Below are positions 4,018 through 8,443 of a stretch of 64,000 nt of DNA, one piece after another. Position numbers and translations under genes: made by a program. Numbering within the stretch: position 1 is the first letter of the stretch; every line of letters begins with the position of its first letter. The DNA is from a virus, in the IMG/VR virus record IMGVR_UViG_3300021142_000004; one strand, given 5' to 3'. The notes beneath the pieces were generated by a model. That model was not told where the DNA came from, ran no database searches, and saw only the letters and a list, made by a program, of their open reading frames with translations.

Positions 4018-4049
4018 CAAAAATAAGGTGGAATTTTCATTCCACCAAA
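4018..4049 (-). promoter_or_regulatory. Bacteroidota-type promoter with hairpin spacer
   Basis: TTTG-N20-TATTTTTG with GGTGGAAT-GAAA-ATTCCACC. Confidence 0.78.
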
Positions 4050-4909
4050 TTTAGTTTCATTAAAATTGTCTTTTTTACTATTTCATAATTTTTATGTATA
4101 TCATATTCCCAAAATCTAACAAATTCAATTGAATTTTCAATTAACATTAGATTTTTACGTCTATCTCGGTCATTATTTTTTAGTTGTATATCATTTAACA
4201 TATTTTTTTTATAAAATAAAGGATTCCCATGCCAATAATCACCATCACACTCAATAACAAAATTATAATCAAGTAAAAAAAAATCACATAAAAACCCATT
4301 TAATGGATAGTTTTTTTTATATTTAATTTTTAATTCATCTAATAAATTTTTTATTTTTAATTCAATTTTTGTTGGTTTTTTTGTTTGGATCATCGCGTCA
4401 TTCAATCTTTTTATTATTGTTTTTTTCTCATCTTCAGTTTTTATTTCCCATTCATTTTTCTTTGATATACTATTTTTAATTCCATAATTTTTTATTCTTT
4501 CATCCGTCAATTTCGTTAATCCATTGTTCCAAGATTTTTTACCATACATTGGGTTATTTTGACCTTGATGTGATGGTAAAATACCTGTTAAAAATAATTG
4601 TTTTCTAGTTTTTGATATTTTTTCACCGGCAATTTTTATTCTTTCTGAATTATTTTTAGTTAAACCATTATTTGGTGATTTTTTACCATACATTGGGTTA
4701 TTTTCTCCACTTAATAAACGTTGTTTTATTTTTTTTGTTTGTTCGTTAGTATGTTTTAATTTTAATCGTTTTATTTTTATCCAAATACTTTCACATGTTC
4801 TTTCATGTTTTTGCATAAATAAAGGACATATCTCTATTTTAGATAGTCCTTTATTTACATATAAATCAATTAAAAATTTTATTTCTTCTTCTGACCATAA
4901 ATTTCCCAT
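4037..4909 (-). mobile_element. free-standing homing endonuclease (NUMOD3-like repeats + DUF559/Vsr-like nuclease)
   Basis: Repeated NNPMYGKK.(P/W)N.GLTK, plus DF...FVIECDGDYWH and RFWE. TATTTAT lies upstream at 4924-4930. Confidence 0.85.
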
Positions 4910-4958: not shown

Positions 4959-5723
4959 TTATGATTTATTTGTTGGTTCTAACCATAAATTCGTATTTTT
5001 AAAAATATAATCCCTTAATGTTGGTATTTCATTTAAACATAATATTGTTTTTAAACTATCACACCTAAAACATTTATATAATTCTTCTCGAATTCTTTCT
5101 TCAGAAATAACAAACATTTTTTCTTGGTAATTATAAACTTTCATCACATTAAAACATTCAGTATCAATTTTAAATCCTTTTGTGATTGAAAACCTTAAAA
5201 ATCTAATAATTCTAAGACAATCATCATCAAATGTTTTTACAGGATCTAATGGTGTTTTTAAAATACCATTTTTTAAATCTTTTATACCATCAAAATAATC
5301 AATTATGTTACCATTTTCATCTTTTGCTAATGCATTTAAAGTTGCATCTCGTCTTTCAAGGTCATCATATAATGTACCAGGTTCAACGATTGGTGTTCTT
5401 GTACCAGGTATATAACCAATCTCTTTTCTAGCCATAACCACGTCTGCAACACCTTCATATTTGTGGTCTTTTGGAAACTTTGCCCTGATAGTATAACAAT
5501 CATGAGTTATCAAAAAAATTTCAAACTTTTCATTTGTTAAATGTTCTATCAAAACATCAAACATTTCTTTTGCAGTTTTAAACTTGGATAACAAATCTTC
5601 ATTTGGAACTGCAACATAATCAACATCCTTAGATTTTAATCCAAGAAGTTCATCCCTCACTTTTCCACCAACCTCATACATTTTAAATAACATATTTTTA
5701 TTTTTAATCTTTAAATTCATCAA
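4959..5723 (-). CDS. tRNA nucleotidyltransferase / poly(A) polymerase family (CCA-adding-like)
   Basis: VGGKVRD, KDVDY, DLERRD.T.NA and FDDD.LRIIR motifs. Confidence 0.9.
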   Translation of the reverse strand: MMNLKIKNKNMLFKMYEVGGKVRDELLGLKSKDVDYVAVPNEDLLSKFKTAKEMFDVLIEHLTNEKFEIFLITHDCYTIRAKFPKDHKYEGVADVVMARKEIGYIPGTRTPIVEPGTLYDDLERRDATLNALAKDENGNIIDYFDGIKDLKNGILKTPLDPVKTFDDDCLRIIRFLRFSITKGFKIDTECFNVMKVYNYQEKMFVISEERIREELYKCFRCDSLKTILCLNEIPTLRDYIFKNTNLWLEPTNKS

Positions 5724-6087
5724 TCAAATCAAAAAAGAATTTAGGTATTGATAATTTAATGTTTTCTTCTTTTTCAATTTCAACTAATCTGTTTATTTGA
5801 GTCTCAGATAACCAATTTAATTCTTTTTGTGAACATATACTACTAAGATAAGTTTTATTATGTTCATTGGACAATTCCTTACTAAACTTATAACAAGAAC
5901 CAAAAATGGCATGTAATCGTTCTATATTTGAATTTTTAACCTGTGTATCAAGATATAGATATATCTTACAGACATTCGGGTTCTTTAAATTGTTTTCCCG
6001 ATTATTCAATTCAACTTTACAAACTATTGGATAACTCAAATAATCAAAAATCTTTTTTCTGTCAATAATTTTTGTTATCCGTATCAT
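5704..6087 (-). CDS. hypothetical protein
   Basis: 127 aa ORF downstream of a promoter. Confidence 0.5.
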   Translation of the reverse strand: MIRITKIIDRKKIFDYLSYPIVCKVELNNRENNLKNPNVCKIYLYLDTQVKNSNIERLHAIFGSCYKFSKELSNEHNKTYLSSICSQKELNWLSETQINRLVEIEKEENIKLSIPKFFFDLIDEFKD

Positions 6088-6104
6088 ACTTGTTATTTAT
6101 GGAG

Positions 6105-6136
6105 CAAAAATAAGGGGAATTTTTCAATTCCCCAAA
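6105..6136 (-). promoter_or_regulatory. Bacteroidota-type promoter with hairpin spacer
   Basis: TTTG-N20-TATTTTTG with GGGGAATT-GAAA-AATTCCCC. Confidence 0.78.
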
Positions 6137-6147
6137 TTTATTTTTAA

Positions 6148-7026
6148 TTAAAGATATTGAGATAATCTTTCTCTTATCTCAGATAATGAAGTTTCTTTAA
6201 CCAAAACACCATCATCAAAAATTGTCTCTAATTCACCAGTACGTTCTTTCTCCCAAGAAACATTATCTTCAAGGTAATATTCACCATTTTCATTTTTACC
6301 GACATACAAAAGACCCTTTGCAGATTTCTTTGTACCATCATCAGTAATTGGGTCTTTGAATATTACCCTTCCGATTACTTGTGGAGTATCCATTGTTCCA
6401 ACTTCACCAATTGATTTACCAATGTTACTTGTTAATTCAACATAAGTTGCCTTAACTGCTCCACCTTGGTTATCTCTGGTTGCGTAACCCATTGAATATG
6501 AACCAACACCCAATACAATGTTTGTTGATGCAAATCCTTTTGCTTCCAATCTTTTACAGATTTCATTTGCACGTTCCAATGTAATTGAATCTCCATAGAT
6601 TGCTCCAATATGTGGATCTAATACCTTGTAGCCTTGTTCATTTACAGTACCACCAAATACATCCCAAAGTAATTCGATTACCCCTTTAGTATCAGGTTTA
6701 TTCGGATAATCAGAGGTTTTAAATCCACTATTTGAATTAAAACCCCCATCACAAGGAATTAAAATACCATCTTTTTCCTTATTGTAAGTTCCACAAATAA
6801 TATCCACCGGATTACCACTATCAGGTCTGATTACCAATTTACCATCTCTTGAAAGAATTAAGTCTTTAAATTCCGGAAGAAATACTGTTATCATTTTCCA
6901 TAAATCAAATTGATCTGACACTAAACTAACAATACCAGTTGGGTAAGTTTTGAGAATATGACTTATATATGGTCTCTCATTAATAACTTTTTTAACTACT
7001 TTTCTTTTTTCAATTACTTTTTTCAT
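6148..7026 (-). CDS. nadV: nicotinamide phosphoribosyltransferase, C-terminal half
   Basis: YPTGIVSLVSD, IRPDSG, IYGDSI, TRD and KDPITDDGTKKSAKG motifs. Confidence 0.9.
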   Translation of the reverse strand: MKKVIEKRKVVKKVINERPYISHILKTYPTGIVSLVSDQFDLWKMITVFLPEFKDLILSRDGKLVIRPDSGNPVDIICGTYNKEKDGILIPCDGGFNSNSGFKTSDYPNKPDTKGVIELLWDVFGGTVNEQGYKVLDPHIGAIYGDSITLERANEICKRLEAKGFASTNIVLGVGSYSMGYATRDNQGGAVKATYVELTSNIGKSIGEVGTMDTPQVIGRVIFKDPITDDGTKKSAKGLLYVGKNENGEYYLEDNVSWEKERTGELETIFDDGVLVKETSLSEIRERLSQYL

Positions 7027-7125
7027 TTTTTATTTTTTATTTTTTAGTAAACCTAAGTTCCAACCATCAAATAGATATTTATCTAATTCTTCTTTTTTAA
7101 TTCTTTTATTTACACCATCTTTATT
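7027..7125 (-). pseudogene. C-terminal remnant of a homing endonuclease between the NAMPT halves
   Basis: Alternative frame NKDGVNKRIKKEELDKYLFDGWNLGLLKNKK* resembles the 'K.I...EL..YL..GW..G' tail of phage HNH/GIY-YIG endonucleases. Confidence 0.65.
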
Positions 7126-7940
7126 AAAATTTCTGAGATTTTATTATTGTTGTCGTCATATGTAACTAAATATTCTTCTTCTATTTCCACTTCATTATAG
7201 TCTAAATGTGAACATGAAATAGAATGTTCTGTCGCCGGAACACTAAACCCAACGTTTTCAGAATTGTAATAATATTGCGATGCTTGTAATGCAGGGATTG
7301 TATCAGTACCAGAGAAACTGGTCAAGAAACCTAAACCTGAAGATATTGCACTTTCAGGATGTTGCATCCCTCTGAAACTAAAATCATGACCTTGGAAATT
7401 AACAAAACCAAGATTATTTTTATCGGTTTTCTTTGCCCAATCGGTTAATATTTTTTTATAACCAAATGCCAATGATGCGGAATGTACTGGTTTCCATATC
7501 AAACTTGAGATCAATGTTTCAAGGAAGTTTGGTAACCAGAAGAACTCAGGGTGTGTGTTATATATTGTCAATACTGGTATTTTTTCACCAACAATAGTAC
7601 CTTCTTTCAAAGTCTTAACACGAATAGGTAAATAACCCAAATCATGAAGTTTTTCAAAGTGTGTAACATCATAGCCACAACCCAAATAACTTGAAAGGTA
7701 TTTCTTAGCTTCACCGATAACCTGTTCTTTTGGTTTATCGAAGAAATTCTTTTTATAGATTTCGTCAATATACTTCATTGTATACTGAGCACCAAACACA
7801 ACTATTTGTTTTGCGTTTTCTGGCATGTATTTTACATTTCTTAATGTGAAATTAGAATAAACACAAGTCGTGTTCTCCGGGTACATTTTGTGATGAGAGG
7901 TTTTATAACCATCTGTTAATAACAAGGGATTTTTTTCCAT
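7110..7940 (-). CDS. nadV: nicotinamide phosphoribosyltransferase, N-terminal half
   Basis: LLTDGYKTSH, FLET, HDFSFRG, GTDT and SVPATEHS motifs. Likely start MEKNP at 7940. Confidence 0.9.
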   Translation of the reverse strand: MEKNPLLLTDGYKTSHHKMYPENTTCVYSNFTLRNVKYMPENAKQIVVFGAQYTMKYIDEIYKKNFFDKPKEQVIGEAKKYLSSYLGCGYDVTHFEKLHDLGYLPIRVKTLKEGTIVGEKIPVLTIYNTHPEFFWLPNFLETLISSLIWKPVHSASLAFGYKKILTDWAKKTDKNNLGFVNFQGHDFSFRGMQHPESAISSGLGFLTSFSGTDTIPALQASQYYYNSENVGFSVPATEHSISCSHLDYNEVEIEEEYLVTYDDNNNKISEILIKMV

Positions 7941-7967
7941 TTTTTTACTTTTATTTTTATTGTTATG

Positions 7968-7999
7968 CAAACATAAGGGATAATTTTTTATCCACCAAC
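7968..7999 (-). promoter_or_regulatory. Bacteroidota-type promoter with hairpin spacer
   Basis: GTTG-N20-TATGTTTG with GGATAA-AAAA-TTATCC. Confidence 0.7.
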
Positions 8000-8443
8000 T
8001 TTTTTAGGAAAAACTTCATCAAATCTTTCATTAAAAGTTTTAGTGAAATCTTTTTTATTATTATTAAACCATATCTTAAATTTAAGATACCAATATAAGG
8101 TATATGGGTCAAAATAAGTTAATGATCCATTATGAATGTACTCCAAATCACCACCACTTAATTTAATTGATATACTATCATTCTCTTTAATAAAAATTAA
8201 AATATTACTATCATCATCATCATTAGATAATAATGAAGTATTTTTCTCTTTATGAGTAAAGGTATAAATATCATTTAAACCCTCAAGATTGGTTCTATAT
8301 TCAAAGATAAAATCTTTGTTAACCAACTTTTCATAAGTTGATTTATAGTATTTATAACGACCATAATTGGTTAATATTGTTGCTAAACAATACCCAAATA
8401 ATAAAAGAAAAAAGACTGCTGAAAAAATAGATAAAAATTCCAT
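7988..8443 (-). CDS. hypothetical membrane-anchored protein
   Basis: N-terminal hydrophobic helix. Confidence 0.6.
   Translation of the reverse strand: MEFLSIFSAVFFLLLFGYCLATILTNYGRYKYYKSTYEKLVNKDFIFEYRTNLEGLNDIYTFTHKEKNTSLLSNDDDDSNILIFIKENDSISIKLSGGDLEYIHNGSLTYFDPYTLYWYLKFKIWFNNNKKDFTKTFNERFDEVFPKKVGG

What the first reader, a model, noticed from the sequence alone, without database searches (positions are those of the whole stretch)
6148..7940. NAMPT split into two genes joined by a complementary acidic/basic peptide pair (intein-free)
Seen: the enzyme breaks just after the ATEHS motif. The N-half ends in LDYNEVEIEEEYLVTYDDNNNKISEILIKMV (9 D/E, alternating beta pattern). The C-half starts MKKVIEKRKVVKKVINE (7 K/R, beta pattern) before rejoining YPTGIVSLVSD. 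The 83-nt gap holds the tail of a deleted endonuclease. Both halves are otherwise intact, and there are no intein Cys1...His-Asn blocks and no intron core. Inference: the two tails form an electrostatic beta-zipper that non-covalently reassembles the enzyme. Endonuclease-split genes are known (Aeh1 nrdA/mobE), but a dedicated charge-zipper pair would be a new, portable heterodimerisation tag.
Basis: partly seen in the sequence, partly recalled or inferred. Interest (0 to 1): 0.8.

Follow-up and report, generated by a model that had tools for sequence, protein, structure and literature searches.

The report
Phage NAD enzyme split, rejoined by tails
A freshwater phage's NAD-rebuilding enzyme gene was cut in two by a selfish nuclease gene, and the insertion gave the two halves a conserved acidic hairpin and a basic strand that most likely clip them back together without splicing; one such case (a phage ribonucleotide reductase) is already published, but here the clip travels with the mobile element through dozens of phage lineages.

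Summary
On the minus strand a NAMPT-family gene breaks 5 to 8 residues after the catalytic ATEHS motif. It is probably Namat, the NARP1 enzyme. The N fragment is 7110-7940, the gap is 83 nt, and the C fragment is 6148-7026.

- **Gap.** It holds the last ~32 codons of a GIY-YIG homing endonuclease gene, whose full-length form sits at the same site in locus L173.
- **Tails are not junk.** The acidic beta-hairpin tail and the basic head recur together in over 30 split NAMPT-family genes, including GC-rich and very divergent lineages. Both are under purifying selection (pN/pS 0.21 and 0.39). Their charges are opposite in all 9 complete pairs.
- **Tails are mobile.** Split and unsplit alleles are interleaved on the core tree, sometimes with identical cores. 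A divergent 60-80 codon tract lies just downstream of the insertion. Four endonuclease types occupy the gap in different loci. So tails and nuclease move together by homing.
- **Fold.** AlphaFold2 models give confident strands for tail and head, around a Namat fold.
- **No splicing.** There are no intein or intron signatures.
- **Novelty.** Crona et al. 2011 showed charged, insertion-derived tails that are essential in the split Aeh1 NrdA.

The scan had noted this same stretch in an overlapping window.

The parts
7110..7940 (-). N fragment of the NAMPT-family (Namat-like) enzyme, 276 aa plus TAA stop
   Evidence: ORF. Pfam NAMPT_N and NAPRTase positions 1-64. 99% identical protein P0001 in another sample.
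7221..7235 (-). ATEHS motif (residues 236-240) with the catalytic histidine. The break lies just behind it.
   Evidence: Invariant A236, E238, H239, S240 in alignment A3. The catalytic role of this His rests on established knowledge of NAMPT (human His247).
7113..7208 (-). Acidic C-terminal tail of the N fragment (residues 245-276), absent from unsplit relatives. It forms a predicted beta-hairpin at residues 256-261 and 267-273. Its last six codons are the endonuclease stub read out of frame.
   Evidence: tail family. (AF2 hairpin). (deletion junction right after the conserved ISE).
7030..7128 (-). Stub of a deleted GIY-YIG homing endonuclease gene: its last ~32 codons and its TAA stop. It fills the 83-nt gap 7027..7109 and overlaps the end of the N tail in another frame.
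   Evidence: frame. (BLASTP to L173 endonuclease residues 290-320, E 6e-7). (DNA 74% to L173 7323..7412). (L173 ORF is SegE-type GIY-YIG, weak).
6979..7026 (-). Basic N-terminal head of the C fragment (residues 1-16, 7 K/R), absent from unsplit relatives
   Evidence: heads of the same type start every C fragment paired with a type A tail. pN/pS is 0.39.
6148..7026 (-). C fragment of the enzyme, 292 aa plus stop
   Evidence: ORF. Pfam NAPRTase positions 73-199. Aligns over its full length to other C fragments and to unsplit relatives.
6472..6504 (-). GSYSMGYATRD (C-fragment residues 175-185). [quoted passage not shown]
   Evidence: Sequence. Signature from PMC12774641. Fold of relative L171 is closest to Namat 9w5x.
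6114..6133 (-). Terminator-like hairpin followed by a T run, just after the C fragment. No such site lies in the gap, so both fragments probably share one transcript.

Best explanation
This is a phage NAMPT-family gene, most likely Namat of the NARP1 NAD+ reconstitution pathway. A mobile homing-endonuclease cassette fractured it directly behind the catalytic-histidine motif.

The cassette has three parts: about 30 codons that become an acidic beta-hairpin tail on the N fragment, a free-standing endonuclease gene, and about 16 codons that become a basic beta-strand head on the C fragment.

The two fragments are translated separately from one transcript and reassemble non-covalently into the normal fold. 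The head strand most likely lies antiparallel against the first strand of the tail hairpin, forming a small charge-complementary intermolecular sheet. That sheet makes the insertion phenotypically neutral.

In this window the GIY-YIG endonuclease was later lost by a deletion of about 1 kb. The deletion left an 83-nt gap and rewrote the last six residues of the tail, so the split is now fixed and depends on the tails.

Shown here: the split, the stub, conservation and purifying selection of the tails, and their co-mobility with the cassette. Inferred: direct pairing of the tails, and that activity needs them.
For: 1. **Anatomy of the split and the stub:**
2. **The same pair recurs elsewhere.** About 24 of the 120 best N-fragment clusters carry the tail. 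So do 12 of 12 metagenome loci found by a tail DNA pattern, each with a basic head where the C fragment is on the contig. These include GC-rich loci L169 and L177, divergent L174, L165 and P0127, and a canonical-NAMPT-like fragment, P0131.
3. **Purifying selection.** The 20-codon tail block has pN 0.18 against a saturated pS of 0.87. The head has pN 0.21 against pS 0.53.
4. **Charge.** Net charge is -7 to -13 for the tail and +3 to +9 for the head in all 9 pairs.
5. **Mobility on the tree.** On the core tree, tail type A needs 22 changes for 29 rows, at least 11 of them forced by well-supported branches. Split and unsplit alleles can have identical or 99.6% identical cores.
6. **Co-conversion tract.** L170 and L166 are about 100% identical to unsplit P0114 and P0102, except for 60-80 residues from the insertion site downstream. 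That tract is 86-93% identical among split alleles whose cores are only 77-84% identical.
7. **Gap content varies.** It holds antisense HNH, sense GIY-YIG, a LAGLIDADG remnant, or only a stub, always between the same tails.
8. **AF2 single-chain model of L171.** It is a read-through with a junk linker. It gives strands 247-262 and 268-274 in the tail and 533-548 in the head at pLDDT 74-88, while the linker stays below 50. The two halves together match Namat 9w5x at TM 0.93.
9. **AF2 model of the window N fragment alone.** It keeps only the short hairpin. The segment that would face the head is disordered.
10. **Published precedent:** PMC3045599.
Against: - No experiment and no contact map. The AF2 output gives strands and confidence but not which strand pairs with which.
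- The single-chain model is an artificial read-through of a relative, not of the window.
- The deletion altered the end of the window's own tail, which also lacks two residues of the consensus strand. It may work less well, or not at all.
- In the only studied precedent (Aeh1 NrdA), the tails were dispensable for fragment association.
- Tail and head lengths do not covary significantly (r 0.51, p 0.16).
- The last 8-19 codons of the tail overlap an antisense endonuclease gene in the HNH-type loci. This could add constraint unrelated to the tail peptide.
Confidence: 0.65

Rival explanations
1. The fragments associate through the ordinary interior of the fold. The tails are selected for something else, as in Aeh1 NrdA: dimerisation of the heterodimers (NAMPT-family enzymes are obligate dimers with active sites at the interface), shaping of the active-site entrance, or stability.
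For: Crona et al. 2011 found the tails essential for activity and for the dimer of heterodimers, but not for the heterodimer. The break lies a few residues from the catalytic His. The halves fold together in the model over a large native interface.
Against: Tail and head leave the fold at adjacent points. They are predicted as strands of equal length (16 and 16 residues in L171) with opposite charge in every pair. Part of the tail is disordered when modelled without the head.
Confidence: 0.2
2. The tails are neutral leftovers of the insertion. Alternatively, the window's copy is a decaying, non-functional gene after the deletion that removed the endonuclease.
For: The deletion rewrote the last six residues of the window's tail. 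The enzyme is an accessory gene. Only two substitutions separate the window from its one near-identical relative, P0001, too few to measure selection on this allele.
Against: pN/pS of 0.21 and 0.39 across the family. Conservation holds in GC-rich lineages, so A-rich codon bias does not explain the basic head. Both window ORFs are intact with all conserved core motifs. The allele is held by runs from several lake studies.
Confidence: 0.08
3. The halves are joined covalently, by a minimal or degenerate split intein, by RNA splicing, or by ribosomal bypass of the 83-nt gap.
For: The layout (fragment, free endonuclease gene, fragment) and the polarity (N part acidic, C part basic) are those of the 'fractured genes' with split inteins (PMC2677866). 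A Cys or Ser often stands at the start of the tail. Earlier notes of this scan propose a translational bypass elsewhere in this genome.
Against: Tail plus head total about 47 residues, far below any known intein. No Hint-domain match was found. No conserved His-Asn ends the head, and the next residue is Glu or Asp, not Cys, Ser or Thr. No Rfam intron matched. The stop and the ATG are conserved while the gap ranges from 83 to 1311 nt and often carries an antisense gene. No landing codon matches the take-off codon GTG near the C-fragment start.
Confidence: 0.03

Closest known systems
Split NrdA-a / NrdA-b of Aeromonas phage Aeh1 with tails from the mobE insertion (Friedrich 2007; Crona et al. 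2011, PMC3045599)
   Same: A free-standing homing endonuclease insertion fragments a phage enzyme next to active-site residues. Unique, oppositely charged C- and N-terminal tails came with the insertion. There is no RNA or protein splicing, and the fragments are translated separately. The authors predicted further cases.
   Different: The host enzyme differs (NAMPT/Namat, not RNR). The polarity is reversed (N tail acidic here, basic in Aeh1). Aeh1 is a single instance, whereas here the tails form a conserved sequence family found in dozens of lineages with at least four endonuclease types, with tree and co-conversion evidence that the tails move with the cassette. In Aeh1 the function of the tails was shown biochemically. 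Here it is inferred.
[quoted passage not shown] 2009, PMC2677866)
   Same: Same gene order. The endonuclease families overlap (GIY-YIG, and a Vsr-like family like the one seen elsewhere in this window). The acidic N part and basic C part associate through long antiparallel strands. Endonuclease-less decay stages occur.
   Different: The tails are about 30 and 16 residues long and lack all catalytic intein blocks, so no splicing is possible. Descent from a degenerate split intein is conceivable but untested.
Phage T4 topoisomerase gp39 / gp60 split by the mobA cassette
   Same: An endonuclease cassette splits a phage enzyme gene, and charged tail-like extensions were noted by Crona et al..
   Different: T4 also uses a 50-nt translational bypass inside gene 60. 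No bypass features are present here.
Namat of NARP1 (PDB 9w5x, 9w5w; PMC12774641) and phage NadV / NAMPT
   Same: Same fold (TM 0.93 for the relative L171), the same Pfam domains, and the adenine-clamp signature. In L025 a Prs-like gene lies directly upstream.
   Different: All characterised members are single polypeptides of about 480 residues without the inserted tails.

Membership tests
Endonuclease-fragmented gene reassembled by insertion-derived tails (Aeh1 NrdA type) | [quoted passage not shown] | tested here: met
   Stub in the window. Intact HNH, GIY-YIG and LAGLIDADG genes lie at the same site in relatives. The break is 5-8 residues after the catalytic His motif.
Endonuclease-fragmented gene reassembled by insertion-derived tails (Aeh1 NrdA type) | Tails absent from unsplit homologues and acquired with the insertion | tested here: met
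   Unsplit relatives have a 20-residue native linker and no tails. Tails are scattered on the core tree and linked to a co-conversion tract.
Endonuclease-fragmented gene reassembled by insertion-derived tails (Aeh1 NrdA type) | Tails of opposite net charge | tested here: met
   -7 and +7 in the window. -7 to -13 and +3 to +9 across all 9 pairs.
Endonuclease-fragmented gene reassembled by insertion-derived tails (Aeh1 NrdA type) | Tails required for enzyme activity or assembly | not testable with these tools
   Indirect evidence only: purifying selection and AF2 strands.
Split intein (Hint domain) | Blocks A, B, F and G: Cys/Ser at position 1, TxxH, terminal His-Asn, and a Cys/Ser/Thr at +1. 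Combined length of about 120 residues or more. | tested here: not met
   47 residues in all. No Pfam or PDB Hint match. The head ends before Glu or Asp and has no conserved His-Asn.
Group I or II intron | Catalytic RNA core recognisable by covariance model | tested here: not met
   No intron family at E up to 10 in 5800-8300. The gap is only 83 nt.
Programmed translational bypass (T4 gene 60 type) | Matched take-off and landing codons around a coding gap, with the downstream part lacking its own start | tested here: not met
   The take-off codon would be GTG, and no GTG lies near the C-fragment start. A conserved ATG and basic head start every C fragment, whatever the gap length.
NAMPT family | NAMPT_N and NAPRTase domains covering one complete enzyme | tested here: met
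   the two fragments cover complementary parts of the profile. Alignment to unsplit relatives.
Namat (NARP1 nicotinamide ADP-ribose transferase) | [quoted passage not shown] | tested here: met
   The window has GSYSMGYATRD (Tyr at 3 and 7, Met at 5). Relatives have GSFTYQYNTRD.
Namat (NARP1 nicotinamide ADP-ribose transferase) | Partner Prs-like Adps gene in the same genome | tested here: inconclusive
Present directly upstream in L025. Not inside this window. No whole genome is held.

The most novel reading that the evidence does not exclude
The tail, endonuclease and head unit is a distinct class of self-neutralising mobile insertion, a 'split-and-zip' cassette. It homes into the catalytic-site codons of NAMPT/Namat genes and carries its own minimal protein-level antidote, a roughly 30+16-residue charge-complementary beta-sheet clip, in place of RNA or protein splicing. 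It swaps endonucleases over time and finally leaves a permanently two-piece enzyme. The clip may be the last remnant of a split intein, and it could serve as a small natural heterodimerisation tag.
Probability: 0.5. Interest if true: 0.75.

Novelty: new variant of a known kind. Interest (0 to 1): 0.62.

Why it matters
Crona et al. proposed in 2011 that insertion-derived tails might be a general way to neutralise gene fragmentation by mobile elements, but only one case was known.

This locus opens a whole natural family. It offers dozens of sequence variants of one tail and head pair, a second unrelated pair at the same site, and all stages from active cassette to endonuclease-less relic. Near-identical split and unsplit alleles are available for clean comparison.

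That makes several things directly testable: the evolutionary route from free-standing endonuclease insertion to fixed split gene, the relation of that route to split inteins, and the minimal requirements for reassembling a protein cut at its active site.

The enzyme is also a phage counter-defence factor (NAD+ reconstitution), so the fitness cost of the insertion is measurable. If the clip binds on its own, it is a compact natural tag for split-protein engineering.

Tried and rejected
- **The look-up of sequencing runs:** no RNA holder listed.
- **Unsplit protein carrying the tail:** the search found none. This is weak, because the search is word-based.
- **Region-limited search with the head:** found only the window's own protein.
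- **Megablast of the region against isolated phages:** no match. tblastn found only unsplit NAMPTs below 60% identity.
- **Tail profile against 1.84 billion representatives:** apart from three NAMPT-family fragments, the hits were repeat proteins that match only the YDDNGN hairpin unit. No other split gene family with this tail turned up. Clustering at 50% identity hides many fragments, so absence is not shown.
- **Tail profile against PDB sequences:** nothing significant.
- **Length covariation of tail and head:** not significant.
- **Whole-genome search for the Adps partner:** no genome is held.
- **Rejected ideas:** intein, intron, bypass, and composition artefact as the source of the basic head. 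GC-rich lineages keep the basic head.

Full report
**The observation**

On the minus strand, ORF 7110..7940 encodes 276 residues with Pfam NAMPT_N and the first 64 positions of NAPRTase. ORF 6148..7026 encodes 292 residues covering NAPRTase positions 73-199.

The N fragment carries ATEHS at residues 236-240 and then runs on for 36 residues, with 9 D/E and 2 K. The C fragment starts with 16-17 residues holding 7 K/R before it rejoins the family alignment at the helix that precedes YPTGI. Unsplit relatives have just 20 residues between ATEHS and YPxGI. The gap 7027..7109 is 83 nt, and the two ORFs are in different frames.

**The gap**

Reading the C-fragment frame upstream gives a 36-residue stub ending in TAA, three bases before the ATG. 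The stub matches the last module of a 324-residue SegE-type GIY-YIG endonuclease that occupies the same position, in the same orientation, in metagenome locus L173. BLASTP gives 48% over 31 residues, ending four residues before that protein's stop, E 6e-7. Pfam support is weak. At DNA level the match is 74% over about 90 nt.

The homology begins right after the conserved ISE of the tail. So the last six residues of the window's tail are endonuclease DNA read in another frame. One deletion removed the tail's own end, its stop, and about 290 codons of the endonuclease.

No intron family matched. The only terminator-like hairpin follows the C fragment, at 6114-6133. Both fragments have similar A-rich leaders before their ATG.

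**The tails are a family**

Among the 120 best relatives of the N fragment:

| Class | Clusters |
|---|---|
| Fragments of about 272-276 residues with the same kind of tail (type A: acidic stretch, EEEY, a strand, YDDNGN turn, a second strand) | about 24 |
| Fragments with an unrelated, helix-like tail (type B) | 14 |
| Other tails | 2 |
| Unsplit | 75 |

A DNA pattern for the type A tail found 12 metagenome loci and 3 viral contigs. All are NAMPT-family N fragments. Wherever the contig continues, the C fragment begins with a basic head of the MK..IE[KT]R.R type.

The set includes GC-rich phages (L169, L177), very divergent cores (L174, L165, P0127), and a fragment of canonical NAMPT type (P0131). 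Codon bias therefore cannot explain the charges. Net charge is -7 to -13 for the tail and +3 to +9 for the head in all nine complete pairs.

Across loci, the 20-codon tail block has pN 0.18 against a saturated pS of 0.87. Heads of equal length have pN 0.21 against pS 0.53. Both peptides are therefore under purifying selection.

**The tails are part of a mobile unit**

- On a tree of the N cores with the tails removed, type A needs 22 changes for 29 rows, at least 11 of them forced by well-supported branches. Type B needs 11 changes for 14 rows. One type B core is identical to an unsplit core.
- The window and P0001 sit inside a clade of unsplit genes.
- L170 is 99.6% identical to unsplit P0114 in the N core and about 100% elsewhere. 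The exception is roughly 60 residues from the insertion site downstream. L166 against P0102 shows the same pattern over about 80 residues.
- That downstream tract is 86-93% identical among the HNH-type split alleles, whose cores are only 77-84% identical.

This is the signature of homing with one-sided co-conversion.

The gene between the tails differs from locus to locus:

| Locus | Gap content | Gap length |
|---|---|---|
| Six loci | Antisense HNH/NUMOD3 gene whose 3' end overlaps the end of the tail | about 765-1068 nt |
| L173 | Sense GIY-YIG gene | 1117 nt |
| L174 | 90-residue LAGLIDADG remnant | 356 nt |
| L165 | Antisense gene built of repeated GW modules | not determined (no C fragment found within 3.5 kb) |
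| L177 | No clear nuclease | 1311 nt |
| Window | Stub only | 83 nt |

The window is thus the endonuclease-less end stage of a cassette of the L173 kind.

**Structure**

The complex predictor closed before its result could be collected. As a substitute, the in-frame read-through of L171 was folded with AlphaFold2 and an alignment of split and unsplit relatives. In this construct the stops are read as Gly, and the antisense endonuclease region acts as a 256-residue junk linker.

- The junk stays below pLDDT 50.
- The tail forms strands 247-262 and 268-274, and the head forms strand 533-548, at block pLDDT 74-88.
- The two halves together match Namat crystal structures at TM 0.93, ahead of NadV and human NAMPT.

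The window's N fragment folded alone keeps only the short hairpin (residues 256-261 and 267-273). The acidic segment before it is left disordered.

The output gives no contacts. That the 16-residue head strand pairs with the 16-residue first tail strand is my inference, from their equal length, their adjacent exit points and their opposite charge.

**Identity of the enzyme**

The C fragment carries GSYSMGYATRD, which fits the published Namat clamp signature. Relatives carry GSFTYQYNTRD. In L025 a Prs-like gene lies directly upstream. The protein is therefore more likely the NARP1 nicotinamide ADP-ribose transferase than a classical NAMPT. The partner gene could not be checked for this genome.

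**Comparison with what is known**

Crona et al. 2011 showed there that oppositely charged tails which came with the insertion are essential for activity. They called them an antidote supplied by the mobile element and predicted more cases. The principle is therefore published.

What is new here:
- a different host enzyme;
- a conserved tail family, plus a second one at the same site;
- direct comparative evidence that tails and endonuclease move together;
- turnover of endonuclease types between constant tails;
- a decay series from active cassette to stub.

The layout and polarity also mirror the 'fractured genes' with split inteins. But the tails are far too short, match no Hint model, and lack the terminal His-Asn and the +1 nucleophile.

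**Verdict**

The main rival is an Aeh1-like role in higher-order assembly. The novelty is that of a new variant of a known kind.

Noticed in passing
L060:2334-4756, and proteins P0045, P0046, P0052, P0064, P0067, P0070, P0071, P0079, P0080, P0089, P0100, P0111, P0113: A second, unrelated tail family (type B) splits the same enzyme at the same site. It has a helix-like tail ending in EYYS and a weakly charged head. In L060 the gap carries an antisense endonuclease gene with a NUMOD3 motif. One type B core is identical to an unsplit core.
   Followed up: partly
P0029 and P0115: Two further N fragments end at the same site with tails unlike types A and B. This suggests more independent cassettes at this hotspot.
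   Followed up: no
L166:3583-4362, L171:2874-3608, L164:3583-4320, L162:1-900: In most type A loci the endonuclease gene is antisense to the enzyme. Its 3' end overlaps the last 8-19 codons of the acidic tail, and its start lies only about 11 nt from the ATG of the C fragment.
   Followed up: partly
window 4037-4909 (-): An intact free-standing endonuclease-like ORF (NUMOD3 motifs plus a Vsr/DUF559-type nuclease domain) lies next to a CCA-adding / poly(A) polymerase-family gene at 4959-5723. Vsr-like nucleases are the second family found in the published 'fractured genes'.
   Followed up: no
L081:5490-6258: The C fragment of this split locus is broken into two overlapping frames. This is either a sequencing error or decay of the split gene.
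   Followed up: no
P0123, P0125, P0135 and other hits: The hairpin core of the tail (strand, YDDNGN turn, strand) is nearly identical to the repeat unit of long beta-hairpin repeat proteins (up to 26 copies in P0123; weak Pfam MORN_2 hit). The tail may be built from a generic stable hairpin.
   Followed up: no
L025:1471-2403 and L081:3505-3963: Genes directly upstream of split enzymes are a Prs-like phosphoribosyltransferase (NARP1 Adps candidate) in L025 and a nucleoside 2-deoxyribosyltransferase-like gene in L081.
   Followed up: partly
window 6148-7940: Nine DNA runs labelled lake water or freshwater metagenome, from nine studies of 2016-2023, hold half or more of the sampled words of this stretch.
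   Followed up: no
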